A DNA stretch of 64,000 bases from Kondoa subrosea (Eukaryota), in the NCBI GenBank assembly GCA_039545335.1, contig BCIN01000001.1, positions 1,162,604-1,226,603 on the forward strand, written 5' to 3'. Shown piece after piece: positions 9,981-64,000 of the stretch. The notes beneath the pieces were generated by a model. The model did no database searches. It saw only the letters and a list, made by a program, of their open reading frames with translations, and was not told the DNA's origin. Position 1 is the first letter of the stretch. Each line of letters opens with the position of its first letter. The translations under genes and the position numbers were made by a program.

Positions 9981-11388
9981 TTATGCAGGCATTTCTGAGA
10001 TGCTTTTTGGGAAACCAGCTTGTTTCCCGTTCAAAGCTGATCTTTGATCTCGAGACTGTACAGCCGCAATTAGACGAAGCATCAAAACGCGTGGAAGGGC
10101 ACTGTACCTGTTTATACACCTGCTTGCGAAGCCTGTTGATACTGCCAAGTGGTTTATGCGCTTCTAGTCCATTGAATGGAGTCCTATTGTACAATGTGAG
10201 CACGTGACAGGCGGTAGACATGCAACTAACAGAGCAATGTGATCCTCCCACCATTTCAATCGCTCTTTCGAAAACGAATCTTGCTTAGGAAAAGTCACTG
10301 TTCCCAACTCGAACCAAGGAGCAGAGCTTTCAGGCCAAACGACAGATGCATCCTCTACCGGATGTTGAGTGAGAGAAGAACTGAATTGAGCCTTGAGTGT
10401 GTAATTGCCAGATCTGGTTGAGAAGTAATCTTGCAACAGGTCTCTGTGTACGTCGGGCGAAGCATCAGATGAGATTGAAGTTTGACCCAAAGCGACTTGG
10501 TCTTCGGCAGGGAACAGCGCATAGTGAGCGATATAAGGTCCGTGAGCAAATGCAGCTGGACAGCGCATTAGTGTCAAGTGATCAAATGAAGATATGTACT
10601 GACATTGAGTGTACATGGTTTGAGACATCAGGTGAGTGTTCGGCAAAGTGCCAGGAGCTAATTGCTTTTTTGAGTCAGACCGCTGCAAGAGCTGTTTCTT
10701 CAGCTCATCGGGTTGCTCCCAGTACTTCAATCGCAAAGAGAATATTTCAACGCAGGTATGAAGATCAGTGAGCTCCAGCATAGCAGCATTATTGAAGTGC
10801 AGATCTTGCGTCGAGCCTTCGGAGTCTTCAAGGAATCGTCCGTGAACGTCGAACACCTTGAGACCGAGACCTCGAGGCGCATTTTCAGTATCTTTGAGAA
10901 TGTGAGATGGCTCGATAGCATATCTAGCAGCAACATAGGCTCAACATAAGCCCCATAAAGTCAACTACGTTGAGAAGCCTCTTCACCTAGCAGCGACAGG
11001 ATATATCTTGCCAGGCTGGAACAATCCCTGTTGCTGCCATTCGGGTAGATCGGACTTGACTGTGAGTTCACCCTTGACTAGAGCTCTTGTCTTAACGTGA
11101 GTGGCTCTCTGCGCATGACCATGTTCCGCATTATTGCGCTCGACGATCTCTTTGACCATTGCAGCGACCTGCTGTATCTTCTCCTGCTCGCCTTCGACTG
11201 GCTTTTCAGCTTCTTGAGCGTACAACAGATCCCCAGGAACAGAAGGGGCCAGGGAGCCAATAGGAAGTCTGCCATTCGGTCAACTTCAGGACTTCTTGGA
11301 TATCAAGAGCTCGTTCGCCGTACATGCTGGCTCCTGCTACTTCAGCGCTCGTAACGGCATCTGCTACTTTCTGTTTGATGGTTTCCAT
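9981..11388 (-). CDS. Heme-dependent catalase-like (small catalase-superfamily) protein
   Basis: HGHAQRATHVK (distal His), GLFQPGKIYPVAARY, PRGLGLKVFDV, QDLHFNN, PVEDASVVW, HKPLGSINRLRKQVY (proximal R-x3-Y); 5 introns. Confidence 0.88.
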
Positions 11389-55524: not shown

Positions 55525-57257
55525 CTACCCGAATCTATCAGGTAATACTACAGGTGCCTGCTCAAAGCATTAGCTTGTTCCATGCAGACGCTCGGGGAAG
55601 ACTTACAATCAGACTCCAAATATACAGAGCCAAACCTGTCATCTACCTCAGTACTGTGCAGAGGCAGCAAGTAAGGGCACATACATATCCAACTGCTGAC
55701 TATCCTCATCCACATAGCTACACCTGATCTTCCTATTCTCACATAATCGCCTTGATCATCTCCTCCATCCATTGGAATCACGACGTTCCTAAAAACATCG
55801 AGCATTAGTTCACTTTCGCGTCATATCAAGGACAAGAGCTCACCAATCCGTCAAAAGCATCGACACATACATAGCGGCCAGACAGAAAATCACATGAAAC
55901 CAAGAATAATTATATCTCGTTCCACTTCGCTCATCATCTCTATCACTAGCACCAGGAGCTCCTTCGTCTACGCCATCATCATCTTCGTCGTCGGAGACTT
56001 CATCTAAAGCAGAAGCAGGTAAACTTCCAGCTTCTACAGCAGCCATCAAAGCTTGAATTCTTAACGAATCTTGTTTGGTAGGTTGTTTGTTGATGACTGT
56101 ATCCATTTCACCTTCTACATCGGTATCCGAAGGTAATCGGATCGCTCCTGATTTGGATGATTTGGAACCTTTCTTGCCTGAGAAAGCTTTGGAAGAAGTT
56201 GCTGCTCTTGAGGTTGAGTAAGCTATAGCTAAGAAAGTGAAGATAGCTCCCAAGATGACCATAGATGAACGAGCAGCGTTTGCTTTGCGTGATAGAGGAT
56301 TGCATTGGCCTGATTTATCTTCGTGATTCGCTACTGCTGAAGTGACAAGGTAAGTTGTGTAGATTCCGACCATGCCTGATTGAGCTAGACCGGATCGAGG
56401 ATTCGCTTCTTGAACAGCAGGTAGAACAGAAAGGAAAGTTGAGATAAGGCAAAGAATGATGTTGAAGGTGATGAAAAATTGGTTCAGTCCACATCCGGAA
56501 GTACCAAAGAAGACATAGTCCACTGTAGTCAACGCAATGACGCCTCCATATTCTGCCAGGGTTGAGCCAACCAATATATATTTCCATAGCTGCGAATCAT
56601 CTTGTTCCCATTTATCGATGCAAGTTTCTGACCAGGTATGAACAAAGTCGACCAGAAGAACCAGACCGATGAGGATGAAGATGCCTGATCCAAAGACCGC
56701 AATGTATTTTGACCAAAACATAAAGAACCCGTTTGGAATAGCAAATGACATGACGATAAGAAGGATCCAAGACAACACTTTAGGGCCCCACCATCCATTC
56801 TGAATAGCTGCTCTTTTTGTTCGTGTGTCTCTAACACCTATGAGCAGTAGTGAGAGGATGGTGTGAAGTAATGCGAGAGCGAAGCAGATTCGATGAACCT
56901 GTAATCATAGCAGACCATCCAGCATACTTTGCGACAAGAGACCGTAATACTCACTGCCAGAACACCGTAACATTTGCCTCCAGAACAACTCATCTTGATA
57001 TAATCATAGCTCAAGGATTCAATCTTGTGTATAGCCCAAGGCGTCAACATGATCCAAGCGACCATAGAATTGAGTAGGAATATAATAGAGTAGCCTATTC
57101 GAGTTGCTATAGAGGACGAACAGTTGCACGACTTGCAGAATGCAGCTGCCGCCTGAGATGTACAGAAGAAGGCTAAACCTGCCAAAGCGCTTGATACGAC
57201 TGTCCCTCCAATGCCTACTATCCCGCCCAGCAATGGGATGGACAGAAGAGCTCCCAT
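55525..57257 (-). CDS. TMS1: Serinc/TMS membrane protein
   Basis: MGALLSIP..CNCSSSIATRIGY, CYGVLAVHRICF, IQNGWWGPK, QEANPRSGLAQS, RYNYSWFHVIF..MLLTDW, IVSSWIC..WSLIAPVVLPDRF. Confidence 0.95.
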
Positions 57258-59608: not shown

Positions 59609-62600
59609 TTAAATTGATTCACCGATACTACCTAGCTTTCTGCTCAAGTAGTCTCGCACCTGGAAGTGATGCGTCAGCAATCCTGAAAGCGTGTCATTCG
59701 CGTCACGACTCACCGCTTGATTCGGATCCTCTTCAGCGATGGCACGCATTCTCGCTTGTCCGTCATCACTCTCTGCAAGAGCAGACCATCTACCAAGATC
59801 GCACATCAGCCTTTTGCCTTCAACGACAGTCTAATGAATACTGACAAAGCATCTAGAGCGGCCAACATCGAATCAGCTTTTCGTCCTTTCTTCATGTTTA
59901 GAGTCGCGTCAGTGAGTTTTTGGGCAGGGCTACTTCAGAACTCAGCATATTCTGGAGGCAAGGAGGCTGCCTTACCTCAATACCAGACCATTTGCGCTCG
60001 GCACAGCTCTGACTGCCAGAGCAAGCAGATAGCAAGCGGAGACGCTTTGCGTTGATGGCGGCAAGCTTGCCAATGTGAGAAGATCTTGAATCAGCTGACG
60101 TTGTAGCTCTACGGTGGAGCAAGAGAGGAAAGAAGAGATATCGGTTGTTGTCTGAGTAGGCGAAATATTTTCTGCTGGCCCAAAGTTCGACAAGACGCCT
60201 TGCAATAGCTCTTCACGGTATTGATCAACTTCCAACAGCGGCAGACACAGTGGGAAGATAATGCCAATGCTTCGGCCTTCCTCCCGTTCGAATCTGGACA
60301 AAAATGTCTGGCGAGAGAAACGTAACAAATCAACGGCAAACTCACACTGATGCTAGCTCAGTGATAACCAATCGTCCGTGAACTTTTCTCTCATCTTCGT
60401 CTTTTCTAGTCAAGATGCGGAGCAGACGACCAGCACTTTCTCGGACCGCATCCATCTTTTCCACCACTTGTTTCAGTGATCGACTGATCAGAATGTCAAG
60501 TTGCGGCTGATCCAAGCTGAACTGTCTGGTCTGGAAGAGTCGAGTGAAGATGTCCAAAGCGGTCAAACGACATTTAGCTCCAACATCGCCTCGCATATCC
60601 GTTGTGTAGTCGCTCAATGCAGCCAGCAGAGCTTTGATGATAGATGTAGATCGATTTGCGGTCGCACTATCGTTGACAAAAGATTTCAACATTGCTTCCT
60701 GTATACGCCCAATGGTGATCAGAGCATTCCGCCGACTTTCCGTCGATTTGGCAGCGAGTTTGTGACCACTGTCCAGTAGCTTGAGAATACGACCAAGAAA
60801 GATGCCTTGATCTGCTGCCGAAAGCTGATTGTAGTCGAAAGACGAGCAACATAGGACAAGAGGAGCTTGAGAAGTCATAGTAGCTCTGTCCATCAATCTC
60901 AGAGTAGCCTTCATCTCAGCAGCGAGATCAAGATGAATGGCTGCTCGACCTAGCAAATTTGCTGCCGCTTGATGGCAAATTTCCTCCGGTCTTTTCAAAG
61001 CGAGATCCAGAAGAGGCCTCCATGTCGTTCCACGTGATGCAGTCTGGTGACCTATGATTCGACTGAGAAGGCTGCAAGCGGAAGCCAGAATCATAGGGGC
61101 ATTATAGCCCTTGCGATGAGTTGGCGATATGCTTGTTATCGCTCCAAATAGCTTGATATAAAGAAGGTCACAGCAAATTCTATTGTTCAATGAGCATGAC
61201 GTACCGCTTCCTTGTCTTCTTCGTTCAGTTTTTCGCTGATCTGCGCACAGATGCATAAACTGCCATGTACATCTGCTACGTTCTCGCTTTGAATTCTTTG
61301 TAGCTACGTAACTATTAGTTGTGATTGGCTGGAGATAGCAGGAGAAGTTACCAGTACACTCGAGTGTTCTGACCAGAATGCTTCAATTTCGTTCTGACAT
61401 ATCCGAAACAGAGATGCAGCCCCTAATTCCCGTACTTCTGGGTCATAATGTCTGACCGAAACAAGTAGAAGATGCTCGAGGATTTTGCTGCGATATTCTG
61501 CGAATCTATTAAGAGATGTGTCAATCTCAATACATCGAATGCAACATGTCAGCCTTACTTCGCCACGCCCGGAGCTGCTACCAGGAAAGCCGTTCTTCTG
61601 ATGCTAACCGTGTAAAAATTGACTTGCTGTAAAACATTGATGCCATGTGGAAAGATATTCTAACCCAACGACTTCAGATGAGCCAACTTTGAGTTATGAA
61701 GTCGATTCACTGACCAATCGTCCTTCTAGTTCCTGAAAAGCTGCACTAGCTGATCTACGAATCTGAACATCGCGATCGAAAAGAGCAGCGACAACGAGTT
61801 CATTCGCCAGAGTAACAGCAAAGGGTGCAATAGCCATTCTATCGAAAGCTCGACCGAAAGACCAGCAAGCATAAGAGGCAGCATCGCGAATAGATATGCC
61901 GATCGATTGTTTGCCTTTGCGAATATCTATATGCAAGGCCTATCGCAATATGAGTACGTATTGTGCTGCTCATGAAGCGATGGTCAGCGGACTTTGATGA
62001 TCCATCGTATGACCTCCGACAGTCGAGCAGCTGGTATCAGGCGGGCGCGACTCAATTCCGCTATTGCCAGACAAGCGCCATTCCAAGCATTATCGGTTGC
62101 GGTGGAAGCAAAAGAGCCTGATGTAGATCCAGTTCGCGAAAATGTCTCTAGGATCGTATCCACAAGCTGGGCAATGCTTTCTTCTGGCAAACGCTTGGCC
62201 ATTCTTGCTGTATATTTGGCTGCAGAATAGCGAATAGTACTGTCCTGCCAAATGATGAGCTTTCAGTGCACAGAAAGAAGACTTCAGCTCACTCTATCTT
62301 CCAAGCAATCAAGAACACCTTGAATATGCTCGGCAACTAATTCTTCTTGTCCTTCGCTATTGTCAACACTTGAACTGGTCGATAGTGCCAGCAATGTGAG
62401 ACGACCAGTGGCTTTGATCTGATATCGATTACTCCAGTTACTGTTGAGCTTCTTCTGCATGCTTTCGGCTTCCGCGAGTAAAACAGAGATACTGCTTGTC
62501 AAGGGAGCTATTTTTTCGAGCGAGCCTAGCTTGAGGAGCTGACAAATGCATTGTACGATACCGCTAATCTAGTACAAAGCCTCAACAAGACAAACGTTTG

Positions 62601-63439
62601 CCACATGTCCACACCTACAAGAAAGAGGTTTTGATTCGCATGCACCTTCTGTACAAACATGTTGAGATGTTCTTGCAAGACGGTTGCCGAGGTATCAGGT
62701 CTAGTAAACGATTATCTTGAGCGAGGAGATCAACACACGTGTCGACTGACCTGGACAGTAATACGCCCAATAGATTTGCAGAAGCGTCTCTTTCCTTACC
62801 AGGGCAATCCAAATAGCGCATGGCAATGCTCGAGAGGCTGGTGAATGTAGTGACATTCTCTGATGAGGGCCCAATAGCGGCATTCCATACATTGAGATCA
62901 AAGGGTAGCTTGCAGACCAATGACAGCCAAAGCAGAAGGATATAACGAGATTGCCATGTATACTCCTCTTGCTTCTCACCTGAGTTCATGCAAGATAGAA
63001 GAAGAGGAAGATCTGATACTTCGTGCGTCAGGAATCGAGCTAAATTCTATATCAAAGAATGTACACTCGCGGAAAGCTCGAAAGCTGACCAATTGTTTTG
63101 TACCCGCGAACTTTGGTGAAGTGATACAGCACAGCAGAGAGCGTATTGACTCGACCGATAGCATCAAACCCGCCAGCGCAGGATTCGCGAAATTGCAGCA
63201 CAATAGGTTCAAGCCAAGTGTTCAGGTGAGCGTCAAGTAGGTAAGGGTCTTCTTGATACACATCCAGCTAGCCAGAAAATGTTTGGAAGGGTGCTGCTAG
63301 CTGTGCCTTTGAAGCTCACGGCAGAAGTGAACTTATTCAATGCATTCGACTCACTGCCTCGAAGCAGCAGTATGTTCAGCGCCGATGAGATCTTTGCGGT
63401 ATCAACAGTAACAGGGGTATCATCATACTCTTCCTGCAT
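59609..63439 (-). CDS. TBCD: Tubulin-specific chaperone D (Alp1/Cin1/TBCD)
   Basis: YQEDPYLLDAHL, KVRGYKTI..FLTHEVSDL, WQSRYILLLWLSLVCKLPFDL, WNGACLAIAEL, IRDAASYACWSFGR, FDRDVQIRRSASAAFQELEGR, DYTTDMRGDVG, EKMDAVR. Confidence 0.93.
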
Positions 63440-63523
63440 GAGAGCAAGAGTGTTTTGGAGGCTACTGATCAAAAAAGCAGGTAAAAGCTGAAACCAGCAG
63501 CTTGCTCTAGTATTTACAAAATA

Positions 63524-64000
63524 TTAGTACACTTCGTCATCCGGCACGGCTTGCAATTGTTGCATCTCTTCAGCAGCTTGCGACCAATATTTGCTTAGAA
63601 GTCGTTCGCTGGAACAAAAGGTGGAAAGTTCAGCATATAGTGCACCGATGGAGGCTGCGTTGCGTCCAGATGGATGAGACAGGAAGAGTCTATTTGGCAG
63701 AAAGTTGAAGCCTTTGCCATCATCTTGTATCTGGACCAGCGCTGCACCGCTTGAATGGATGAACTGCGTGCTCATGCAAGGTGTCTTCCGATAGCTGTAC
63801 GAGACTTTGAGTTCTGGCGGAAAGCGATGGTCGGCTTCAATACTGTTAATCGAGCTTAGCCAAGCCTCTCCTTTTCCTTTCAGACTTACTCTATGCTAAA
63901 GTCAGAATCTCGACTTTACTGGGAGGGCAAATAGCTCACCTAGTATGTAGCCAAATTTTCTGAGTAAGCAGTGCAGATACTCCTCAGAGTCTTCATTTGG
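63524..64000 (-). CDS. IML1: 3' end of Iml1/DEPDC5 (GATOR1/SEACIT subunit); partial, runs off the window
   Basis: Spliced LLRKFGYILDIEADHRFPPELKVSYSYRKTP..TQFIHSSGAALVQI..GFNFLPNRL..FCSS..L..YW matches the C-terminal domain pattern of fungal Iml1 as I recall it. Confidence 0.8.

What the first reader, a model, noticed from the sequence alone, without database searches (positions are those of the whole stretch)
63843..63940. Apparently obligatory single-nucleotide exon in IML1/DEPDC5
The minus strand reads ...ATA CTA G | GTGAGC..CTGAC..CATAG (intron 63939-63891, 49 nt) | A (63890) | GTAAGT..CTAAG..AACAG (intron 63889-63843, 47 nt) | T ATT GAA GCC. Two complete introns of typical size for this window flank one base. 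Keeping that A makes G+A+T = Asp and gives FGYIL-D-IEADHRFP in frame with the C-terminal domain. Removing the whole 97 nt as one intron, or using the nearer TTAG acceptor (6-nt exon), causes a frameshift. One-nucleotide exons are very rarely documented and gene finders miss them. Skipping could act as an NMD/truncation switch on a TORC1 regulator (inference).
Basis: partly seen in the sequence, partly recalled or inferred. Interest (0 to 1): 0.85.

Follow-up and report, generated by a model that had tools for sequence, protein, structure and literature searches.

The report
One-base exon in fungal IML1 gene
Near the end of a fungal IML1 (TORC1-regulator) gene, a single A between two ordinary short introns is needed to spell a nearly invariant aspartate codon; it is probably a real one-base exon, a rare oddity already described in plants and other fungi.

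Summary
The sequence is exactly as described. On the minus strand the exon ends in G (63940). A 49-nt GT..AG intron, one A (63890) and a 47-nt GT..AG intron follow, and the last exon starts with T (63842).

G+A+T gives Asp. In 101 orthologue alignments that span the junction, 99 are gapless there; 98 of these have Asp and 1 has Glu. An intronless metagenomic orthologue and yeast Iml1 of solved structure 8adl read through the same Leu-Asp without a break.

An orthologue profile scores them 19-22 bits below the one-base-exon model, and a non-canonical TG-AG model 5 bits below. Skipping the A, a 6-nt exon, or retaining either intron all give early stops.

No RNA run was listed, no whole genome is held, and no DNA of a close relative was found. 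The case therefore rests on comparison, not transcripts.

One-base exons are already documented: Arabidopsis APC11, Fusarium CYP621A, and 13 in Coprinopsis cinerea.

Verdict: probably real (about 0.85), a new member of a known kind, of moderate interest. The proposed regulatory switch is untested.

The parts
63940..64000 (-). End of the upstream IML1 exon, cut by the window edge: 20 full codons plus G 63940, the first base of the Asp codon
   Evidence: Residues 5-20 align with the conserved stretch just before the Asp in the orthologue profile.
63891..63939 (-). Intron 1, 49 nt, phase 1: donor GTGAGC, branch-like CTGAC at 63905-63901 (A 63902, 11 nt before the acceptor G), acceptor CATAG. A nearer TTTAG acceptor ends at 63896, only 6 nt after the branch A.
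   Evidence: The donor GTGAGC also appears in candidate introns of the neighbouring gene. Retaining this intron gives in-frame stops.
63890..63890 (-). One-nucleotide exon, A: the middle base of the composite Asp codon G-A-T
   Evidence: Asp in 98 and Glu in 1 of 99 gapless orthologue alignments. This model has the highest profile score, 128.2 bits.
63843..63889 (-). Intron 2, 47 nt, phase 2: donor GTAAGT, branch-like CTAAG at 63859-63855 (A 63856, 13 nt before the acceptor G), acceptor AACAG
   Evidence: Retaining this intron gives an immediate stop.
63524..63842 (-). Last exon, coding part: T 63842 (third base of the Asp codon), 105 codons, and the stop at 63526-63524. It encodes the extreme C-terminus of Iml1.
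   Evidence: A phmmer search gave 121 hits at E<=1e-3, among them full-length proteins of 1033-2619 aa matched at or near their C-terminal ends. The profile also hits yeast Iml1 8adl_W at residues 1453-1574 of 1584, E 2.6e-13.

Best explanation
This is the 3' end of an IML1/DEPDC5 orthologue in an intron-rich fungus. Its nearest named relatives are the Pucciniomycotina Atractiella and Mixia. The codon for a nearly invariant aspartate is split by two separate canonical spliceosomal introns, one after its first base and one after its second. The middle base, A 63890, is therefore an exon of one nucleotide.

Shown: the anatomy; the need for exactly one extra base; and the match of G-A-T to the conserved Asp with no gap on either side.

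Inferred: how it is spliced. Each intron has its own donor, branch-like motif and acceptor, and a typical length of about 50 nt, so each is probably recognised on its own by intron definition. U1 pairing at the second donor (AGA|GTAAGT) covers the acceptor AG of the first intron. The two introns therefore cannot be engaged at once and must be removed one after the other, much like recursive splicing except that one base is kept.

Any other outcome gives an early stop and an Iml1 that lacks its last 105 residues. Those outcomes are joining the first donor to the second acceptor, using the nearer TTTAG acceptor, or retaining either intron.

The likeliest origin is that a second intron was gained one base away from an older one. 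Both halves have normal intron size and the two are unrelated in sequence. This origin is inference.
For: Sequence.

Family: the 105-aa C-terminal piece gave 121 hits at E<=1e-3. Named ones are Mixia osmundae 'Vacuolar membrane-associated protein IML1' and an Atractiella rhizophila hypothetical protein. Both carry PF12257 IML1 and PF00610 DEP. A profile of the region hits yeast Iml1 8adl_W at residues 1453-1574 of 1584, E 2.6e-13.

Junction: of 101 alignments that span positions 16-26 of the spliced peptide, 99 are gapless; 98 of these have Asp and 1 has Glu at the composite codon. The 2 gapped ones also show Asp in that column.

Model comparison against a profile of 91 orthologue segments:
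- one-base exon: 128.2 bits
- non-canonical TG-AG 96-nt intron (Gly): 123.1
- 69-nt intron: 108.8
- 63-nt intron: 108.0
- 54-nt intron: 107.3
- 138-nt intron: 106.5

Intronless marker: locus L001 is one open frame of at least 1177 aa that reads ..GYILD-VEGD.., with GAC for the Asp and no interruption.

Chance: an internal AG-A-GTRAGY that splits a 97-nt intron into two halves of at least 38 nt arises in 145 of 200,000 shuffles.

Alternative products all end early.

Precedent and mechanism:
- Arabidopsis APC11. The authors propose intron definition plus one-after-another removal (PMC4674806; abstract, Discussion).
- Fusarium CYP621A, with read support (PMC12940212; passages, Discussion).
- 13 one-nt exons in the long-read annotation of Coprinopsis cinerea (PMC12230235; passage).
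Against: There is no transcript evidence: no RNA run was listed, so read laying could not be used.

Only 61 nt of the upstream exon lie in the window, and no whole genome is held. The rest of the gene, and its integrity, were not seen.

No DNA of a close relative was available, so conservation of the two-intron layout is untested. The only related locus found (36% identity) has no intron here.

The intron-pattern adjacency by itself is not rare: a 1-nt-apart pair occurs in 15 of 200 shuffled windows, and one 0-nt pair elsewhere in the real window is a chance match.

The branch-like motif of intron 2 (CTAAG) departs from the usual CTRAY, a consensus I recall and did not test.

The non-canonical TG-AG model is only 5 bits worse.

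Most orthologue sequences are predicted proteins and may carry model errors of their own.
Confidence: 0.85

Rival explanations
1. Assembly or sequencing indel. The true gene has one 97-nt intron and one more base in a flanking exon, and the internal AG-A-GTAAGT is a coincidence.
For: No raw reads could be examined (one search listed no runs, no genome held). Removing all 97 nt leaves the frame short by exactly one base.
Against: At 97 nt the intron would be about twice the modal pattern-defined intron length. An internal AG-A-GTRAGY that splits it into two normal-sized halves arises in only 145 of 200,000 shuffles, and in 42 with a branch-like motif as well. Neither exon edge is a homopolymer. 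The retained base happens to give the invariant Asp.
Confidence: 0.05
2. A single canonical in-frame intron is used instead. The candidates are 63939-63877 (63 nt), 63939-63871 (69 nt), GTAAAG..GAGAG (54 nt), or GTATCT 63980-63843 (138 nt). The protein then carries a 9-15-residue insert in place of the Asp, or lacks the 14 residues before the Asp.
For: All four have GT..AG ends and keep the frame open. Such models are what an automatic gene finder would probably choose.
Against: They score 106.5-108.8 bits against 128.2 for the one-base-exon model. 99 of 101 orthologue alignments have no gap here. The 63- and 69-nt models need purine-rich AAAG acceptors that lie past two earlier AGs and past a consensus GTAAGT donor. 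The 138-nt model deletes a conserved block.
Confidence: 0.04
3. One non-canonical TG..AG intron of 96 nt (63938-63843) is removed, which gives Gly in place of Asp.
For: It keeps the frame and the length, and scores only 5 bits below the best model (123.1 against 128.2).
Against: It needs a non-GT donor right next to a good GTGAGC donor. It also puts Gly where 98 of 99 orthologues have Asp and none has Gly. The rarity of TG-AG introns is recalled knowledge and was not tested here.
Confidence: 0.02
4. The gene is decaying, or makes an Iml1 without the conserved C-terminal 105 residues, and the apparent one-base exon has no function.
For: Only the last 126 codons or so are visible. No expression data could be had.
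Against: The last exon is an intact 105-codon frame. It keeps every invariant and nearly invariant residue of a 30-sequence alignment: H29, C76, L82, Y17, S31, G32, N50 and R51. It matches orthologues at E down to 3e-24.
Confidence: 0.04

Closest known systems
One-nucleotide exon of Fusarium CYP621A P450 genes (PMC12940212, 2026; passages and Discussion read)
   Same: It is a fungal nuclear gene in which a phase-1 boundary cannot be joined to a phase-2 boundary unless one base between two short GT..AG introns is kept. The base is the middle base of a codon in a conserved motif. An intronless relative serves as the length marker, and automatic gene models get the site wrong.
   Different: There the base is G (AG-G-GT, Gly of the PKG motif). 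The layout is conserved in 24 aligned genes and confirmed by 18 SRA reads. Here the base is A (Asp), the gene is IML1, the fungus is basidiomycete-like, and neither transcripts nor relatives' DNA could be examined.
Constitutive single-nucleotide exon of Arabidopsis APC11 (PMC4674806, 2015; abstract and Discussion read)
   Same: One exonic base lies between two spliceosomal introns. The authors argue for intron definition with the two introns removed one after another, which is the mechanism I infer here.
   Different: It is a plant gene, and splicing was shown experimentally with GFP fusions in Arabidopsis and rice. None of that was done here.
Micro-exons in the long-read annotation of Coprinopsis cinerea (PMC12230235; passage read)
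   Same: It is an intron-rich basidiomycete with 13 one-nt exons in 13 genes. Leaving such micro-exons out often creates premature stops.
   Different: The genes are not named in the text I could read. The three readable supplementary spreadsheets do not mention exons and the PDF supplements could not be read. Whether IML1 is among the 13 is therefore unknown.
Stwintrons and the one-nucleotide intron shift in Pezizomycotina (PMC5587772; abstract read)
   Same: Two introns at one spot have to be excised in consecutive reactions, and intron positions one nt apart are seen in orthologues.
   Different: In a stwintron the internal intron interrupts a splice signal of the external intron, and no exon base is left between them. 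Here both introns are complete in the primary transcript and one coding base is kept.

Membership tests
Iml1/DEPDC5 (SEACIT/GATOR1 subunit) | C-terminal region homologous to the C-terminus of Iml1 proteins | tested here: met
   121 hits, with full-length proteins matched at or near their C-terminal ends; the Mixia protein is named IML1; yeast Iml1 8adl_W residues 1453-1574 of 1584, E 2.6e-13; human DEPDC5 E 4e-4. The window pieces alone hit no Pfam family.
Iml1/DEPDC5 (SEACIT/GATOR1 subunit) | IML1 N-terminal domain (PF12257) and DEP domain (PF00610) in the same protein | not testable with these tools
   These parts lie beyond the window edge at 64000, and no genome is held. The homologues P0008 and P0003 have both domains.
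One-nucleotide spliceosomal exon | Two complete GT..AG introns with exactly one base between them | tested here: met
One-nucleotide spliceosomal exon | The base is needed to join a phase-1 donor to a phase-2 acceptor, and leaving it out breaks the frame | tested here: met
   skipping the base gives a stop 23 codons into the shifted frame; with the base kept, the frame is open to the natural stop.
One-nucleotide spliceosomal exon | The restored codon and spacing match orthologues, including an intronless one | tested here: met
   98 Asp and 1 Glu in 99 gapless alignments; best score; intronless L001; yeast Iml1.
One-nucleotide spliceosomal exon | Transcripts contain the base at the junction | not testable with these tools
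   One search listed no run, so read laying could not be used.
One-nucleotide spliceosomal exon | The layout is conserved in related genomes | not testable with these tools
   The single metagenome scan gave one distant locus that has no intron here. The closest protein relative (P0001/P0122, 58% identity) has no accessible DNA.
Stwintron (spliceosomal twin intron) | An internal intron interrupts the donor, branch or acceptor of an external intron, which becomes functional only after the first excision | tested here: not met
   both introns carry their own intact donor and acceptor in the primary sequence, and an exonic base separates them.
Recursive splicing at a zero-nucleotide exon (ratchet site) | An acceptor directly abuts a regenerated donor, AG|GTAAGT, and no base is kept | tested here: not met
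   the site reads AG-A-GTAAGT, so one base is kept. It probably works in a similar stepwise way, which is inference.

The most novel reading that the evidence does not exclude
Both the phase-1 and the phase-2 position of one codon are occupied at once. This would be a living intermediate of one-nucleotide intron sliding: a second intron was gained one base from an older one, and later loss of either would look like a 1-nt shift.

Because the two introns must be removed in sequence, production of the Iml1 C-terminus depends on splicing order and speed. Skipping the A would then give a C-terminally truncated Iml1 and could tune TORC1 signalling.
Probability: 0.12. Interest if true: 0.6.

Novelty: new member of a known kind. 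Interest (0 to 1): 0.35.

Why it matters
Automatic gene finders cannot place a one-base exon. At this site they would truncate Iml1, shift its frame, or insert a false peptide into a conserved motif of a central nutrient-signalling regulator.

The case would add a second gene family, in a basidiomycete-like fungus, to the one named fungal example (Fusarium P450). It fits the count of such exons in Coprinopsis, and it gives a clean substrate for asking how the spliceosome handles two introns whose splice signals overlap.

It opens no new kind of biology.

Tried and rejected
Dead ends:
- Own genome: none is held.
- RNA runs: none was listed.
- Pfam on the two window pieces: no family.
- Word-indexed protein search for longer proteins: none scored.
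It was repeated with 5 sequences and gave one distant locus only.
- Earlier findings of this scan: nothing by place or by sequence. The search by words gave only micro-exon cases in other genomes.
- Supplements of the Coprinopsis paper: the three readable spreadsheets do not mention exons, and the PDFs could not be read.
- Literature linking IML1 with one-base exons: in the search, none of the 15 listed of 194 papers joins IML1 with a one-nucleotide-exon term; the one that holds IML1 is an epilepsy review. None of the 27 titles names IML1 or DEPDC5.

Ideas rejected:
- RNA structure bringing the sites together: the fold of 63823-63960 has z = -0.76.
- Introner-like or duplicated introns: neither intron has another copy in the window, and the two do not align with each other.
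- A stwintron reading: no splice signal is interrupted.
- Single-intron models of 63, 69, 54 and 138 nt, and a TG-AG model of 96 nt: all score lower.

Limits of my own controls:
- The regex intron pair on the + strand at 10542-10631/10632 is antisense to a 258-aa ORF, so it is a chance match.
- The heuristic intron sets are noisy. I use them only to say that introns of about 50 nt are common.

Full report
**The observation.**
- The upstream exon ends ...ATA CTA G at 63940.
- Intron 1 is 63939-63891 (49 nt): donor GTGAGC, CTGAC at 63905-63901, acceptor CATAG.
- A single A sits at 63890.
- Intron 2 is 63889-63843 (47 nt): donor GTAAGT, CTAAG at 63859-63855, acceptor AACAG.
- The last exon starts T ATT GAA at 63842 and runs to the stop at 63526-63524.

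Joining G + A + T gives Asp and an open frame to the natural stop. Only 61 nt of the upstream exon lie inside the window, and no whole genome is held for it.

In unspliced DNA the upstream and downstream frames are the same frame, 99 nt apart, with in-frame TGA and TAG between them. Any intron of 3n nt that removes both stops therefore keeps the frame. I found four canonical GT..AG candidates:
- 63 nt, to an AAAG acceptor
- 69 nt, to an AAAG acceptor
- 54 nt, GTAAAG..GAGAG
- 138 nt, from an upstream GTATCT donor

There is also a non-canonical TG..AG intron of 96 nt that would give Gly. So does retention of either intron.

**What the gene is.** The 105-residue last exon alone hits no Pfam family. 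A HMMER search of 1.84 billion representative proteins gave 121 hits at E<=1e-3 and 16 at E<=1e-10. The best is 58% identical over 83 residues (P0001, a 90-aa fragment). Many hits are proteins of 1033-2619 aa matched at or near their C-terminal ends.

Named hits are Mixia osmundae 'Vacuolar membrane-associated protein IML1' and an Atractiella rhizophila hypothetical protein. Both carry the IML1 N-terminal domain and a DEP domain. A profile of the region hits yeast Iml1 in solved structure 8adl at residues 1453-1574 of 1584 (E 2.6e-13), and human DEPDC5 weakly.

This is therefore the 3' end of an IML1/DEPDC5 orthologue from a poorly sampled, probably basidiomycete, fungus. The N-terminal domains lie outside the window and could not be checked.

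**The junction against orthologues.** I first looked by eye at 40 of the 121 hits. Asp directly precedes the [IVLM]-E-A-D block in 39 of them, and Glu in 1.

I then aligned the spliced peptide, built inside a script, to all 121 hits. Of these alignments, 101 span positions 16-26, and 99 are gapless there. At the composite codon 98 have Asp and 1 has Glu. The 2 gapped alignments also show Asp in that column. Asp is the most conserved column of the stretch; the neighbours are Leu 90, Glu 81 and Ala 76 of 99.

A profile built from 91 orthologue segments scores the models as follows:

| Model | Bits |
|---|---|
| One-base exon | 128.2 |
| TG-AG, 96 nt (Gly) | 123.1 |
| 69-nt intron | 108.8 |
| 63-nt intron | 108.0 |
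| 54-nt intron | 107.3 |
| 138-nt intron | 106.5 |

**An intronless marker.** There the gene is one uninterrupted frame of at least 1177 residues. It reads ..GYILD-VEGD.., with GAC for the Asp. Yeast Iml1 reads GFLLD at the same place. The continuity across the junction is thus a property of real proteins and not of gene models.

**Chance.** With a loose pattern (GTRAGY, a branch-like motif, HAG, 40-100 nt), this is the only spot in the window where two complete introns lie 1 nt apart. That alone is weak evidence: a 1-nt-apart pair occurs in 15 of 200 dinucleotide shuffles of the window, and a pair 0-3 nt apart in 38 of 200. One real 0-nt pair, on the + strand at 10542-10632, is antisense to a 258-aa ORF and is a chance match.

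The stronger test asks how often a single 97-nt intron of this composition would hold an internal AG-N-GTRAGY with both halves at least 38 nt long. The answer is 459 of 200,000 shuffles, 145 with N=A, and 42 with a branch-like motif as well.

Pattern-defined introns in the window are most often 40-59 nt: 18 of 43 on the + strand and 22 of 57 on the - strand. The shortest frame-joining candidates in the neighbouring gene are about 48-55 nt. These intron sets are heuristic.

**How it probably works (inferred).** Each intron has its own donor, branch-like motif and acceptor, and a normal length, so each can be defined on its own. The U1 binding site of the second donor (AGA|GTAAGT) overlaps the acceptor AG of the first intron. 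The two introns therefore cannot be engaged together and must be removed in sequence.

The context of the second donor is the same before and after removal of intron 1, because exon 1 and intron 1 both end in TAG. Either order looks workable. The authors of the Arabidopsis APC11 paper propose the same combined intron-definition and recursive model (PMC4674806, Discussion).

In intron 1 the first AG after the branch A (TTTAG) is only 6 nt away and is probably too close. CATAG, at 11 nt, is the productive acceptor. That very near AGs are passed over is recalled knowledge and was not tested.

I found no RNA structure signal (z = -0.76). Neither intron has another copy in the window, and the two do not resemble each other. 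Gain of a second intron beside an older one fits better than rescue by a cryptic exon inside one long intron, the scenario offered for Fusarium. The origin remains open.

**Comparison with what is known.** One-base exons are documented in four places:
- Arabidopsis APC11 (PMC4674806; abstract).
- Plant micro-exon catalogues (PMC8831610, search listing only).
- Fusarium CYP621A. This is a one-base G in 24 aligned genes, with 18 supporting reads. The paper calls it the second example overall and the first in a fungus (PMC12940212, passages).
- The long-read annotation of Coprinopsis cinerea, with 13 one-nt exons in 13 genes (PMC12230235, passage).

The structure is not a stwintron. No splice signal is interrupted and a coding base is kept (PMC5587772, abstract). 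In my searches no paper ties IML1 to such an exon. The Coprinopsis gene list was not in the supplements I could read.

**Verdict.**
- The core interpretation is supported by comparison, but not by transcripts. I put it at about 0.85.
- The rivals keep about 0.15 together: an assembly indel, an in-frame single intron, a TG-AG intron, or a decaying gene.
- The regulatory-switch idea is untested.
- The finding is a new member of a known kind. It is useful for annotation and as a splicing substrate, and its interest is moderate (0.35).

Noticed in passing
window 10542-10700, + strand: Two pattern-complete introns abut with no base between them (10542-10631, then a GTGAGT donor at 10632). They lie antisense to a continuous 258-aa ORF at 10164-10940 on the - strand, so this is a chance match. 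It shows how loose the intron pattern is.
   Followed up: partly
window 63437-63526, - strand: Only 84 nt separate the IML1 stop (63526-63524) from the first ATG (63439-63437) of the next gene on the same strand. That gene is a multi-exon gene with introns of about 50 nt, and its large exon at 60345-61382 weakly hits Tubulin folding cofactor D C-terminal (PF12612, E 9.9e-5). The IML1 3' end and the neighbour's promoter must be very compact or must overlap.
   Followed up: partly
proteins P0006, P0010, P0039: Three short predicted proteins from other organisms begin with residues that are not homologous, right up to the E-A-D block. This would fit an exon boundary about one codon downstream of the site studied here in other lineages. 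No DNA was available to test it.
   Followed up: no
L001 1-3534: A metagenomic IML1 orthologue (36% identity to the window piece) is a single open frame of at least 1177 residues with no intron. It has a DEP domain and a weak DEPDC5_CTD match.
   Followed up: partly
window 55843-56904, - strand: A 354-aa exon encodes a Serinc (serine incorporator) family protein (PF03348, E 1e-125).
   Followed up: no
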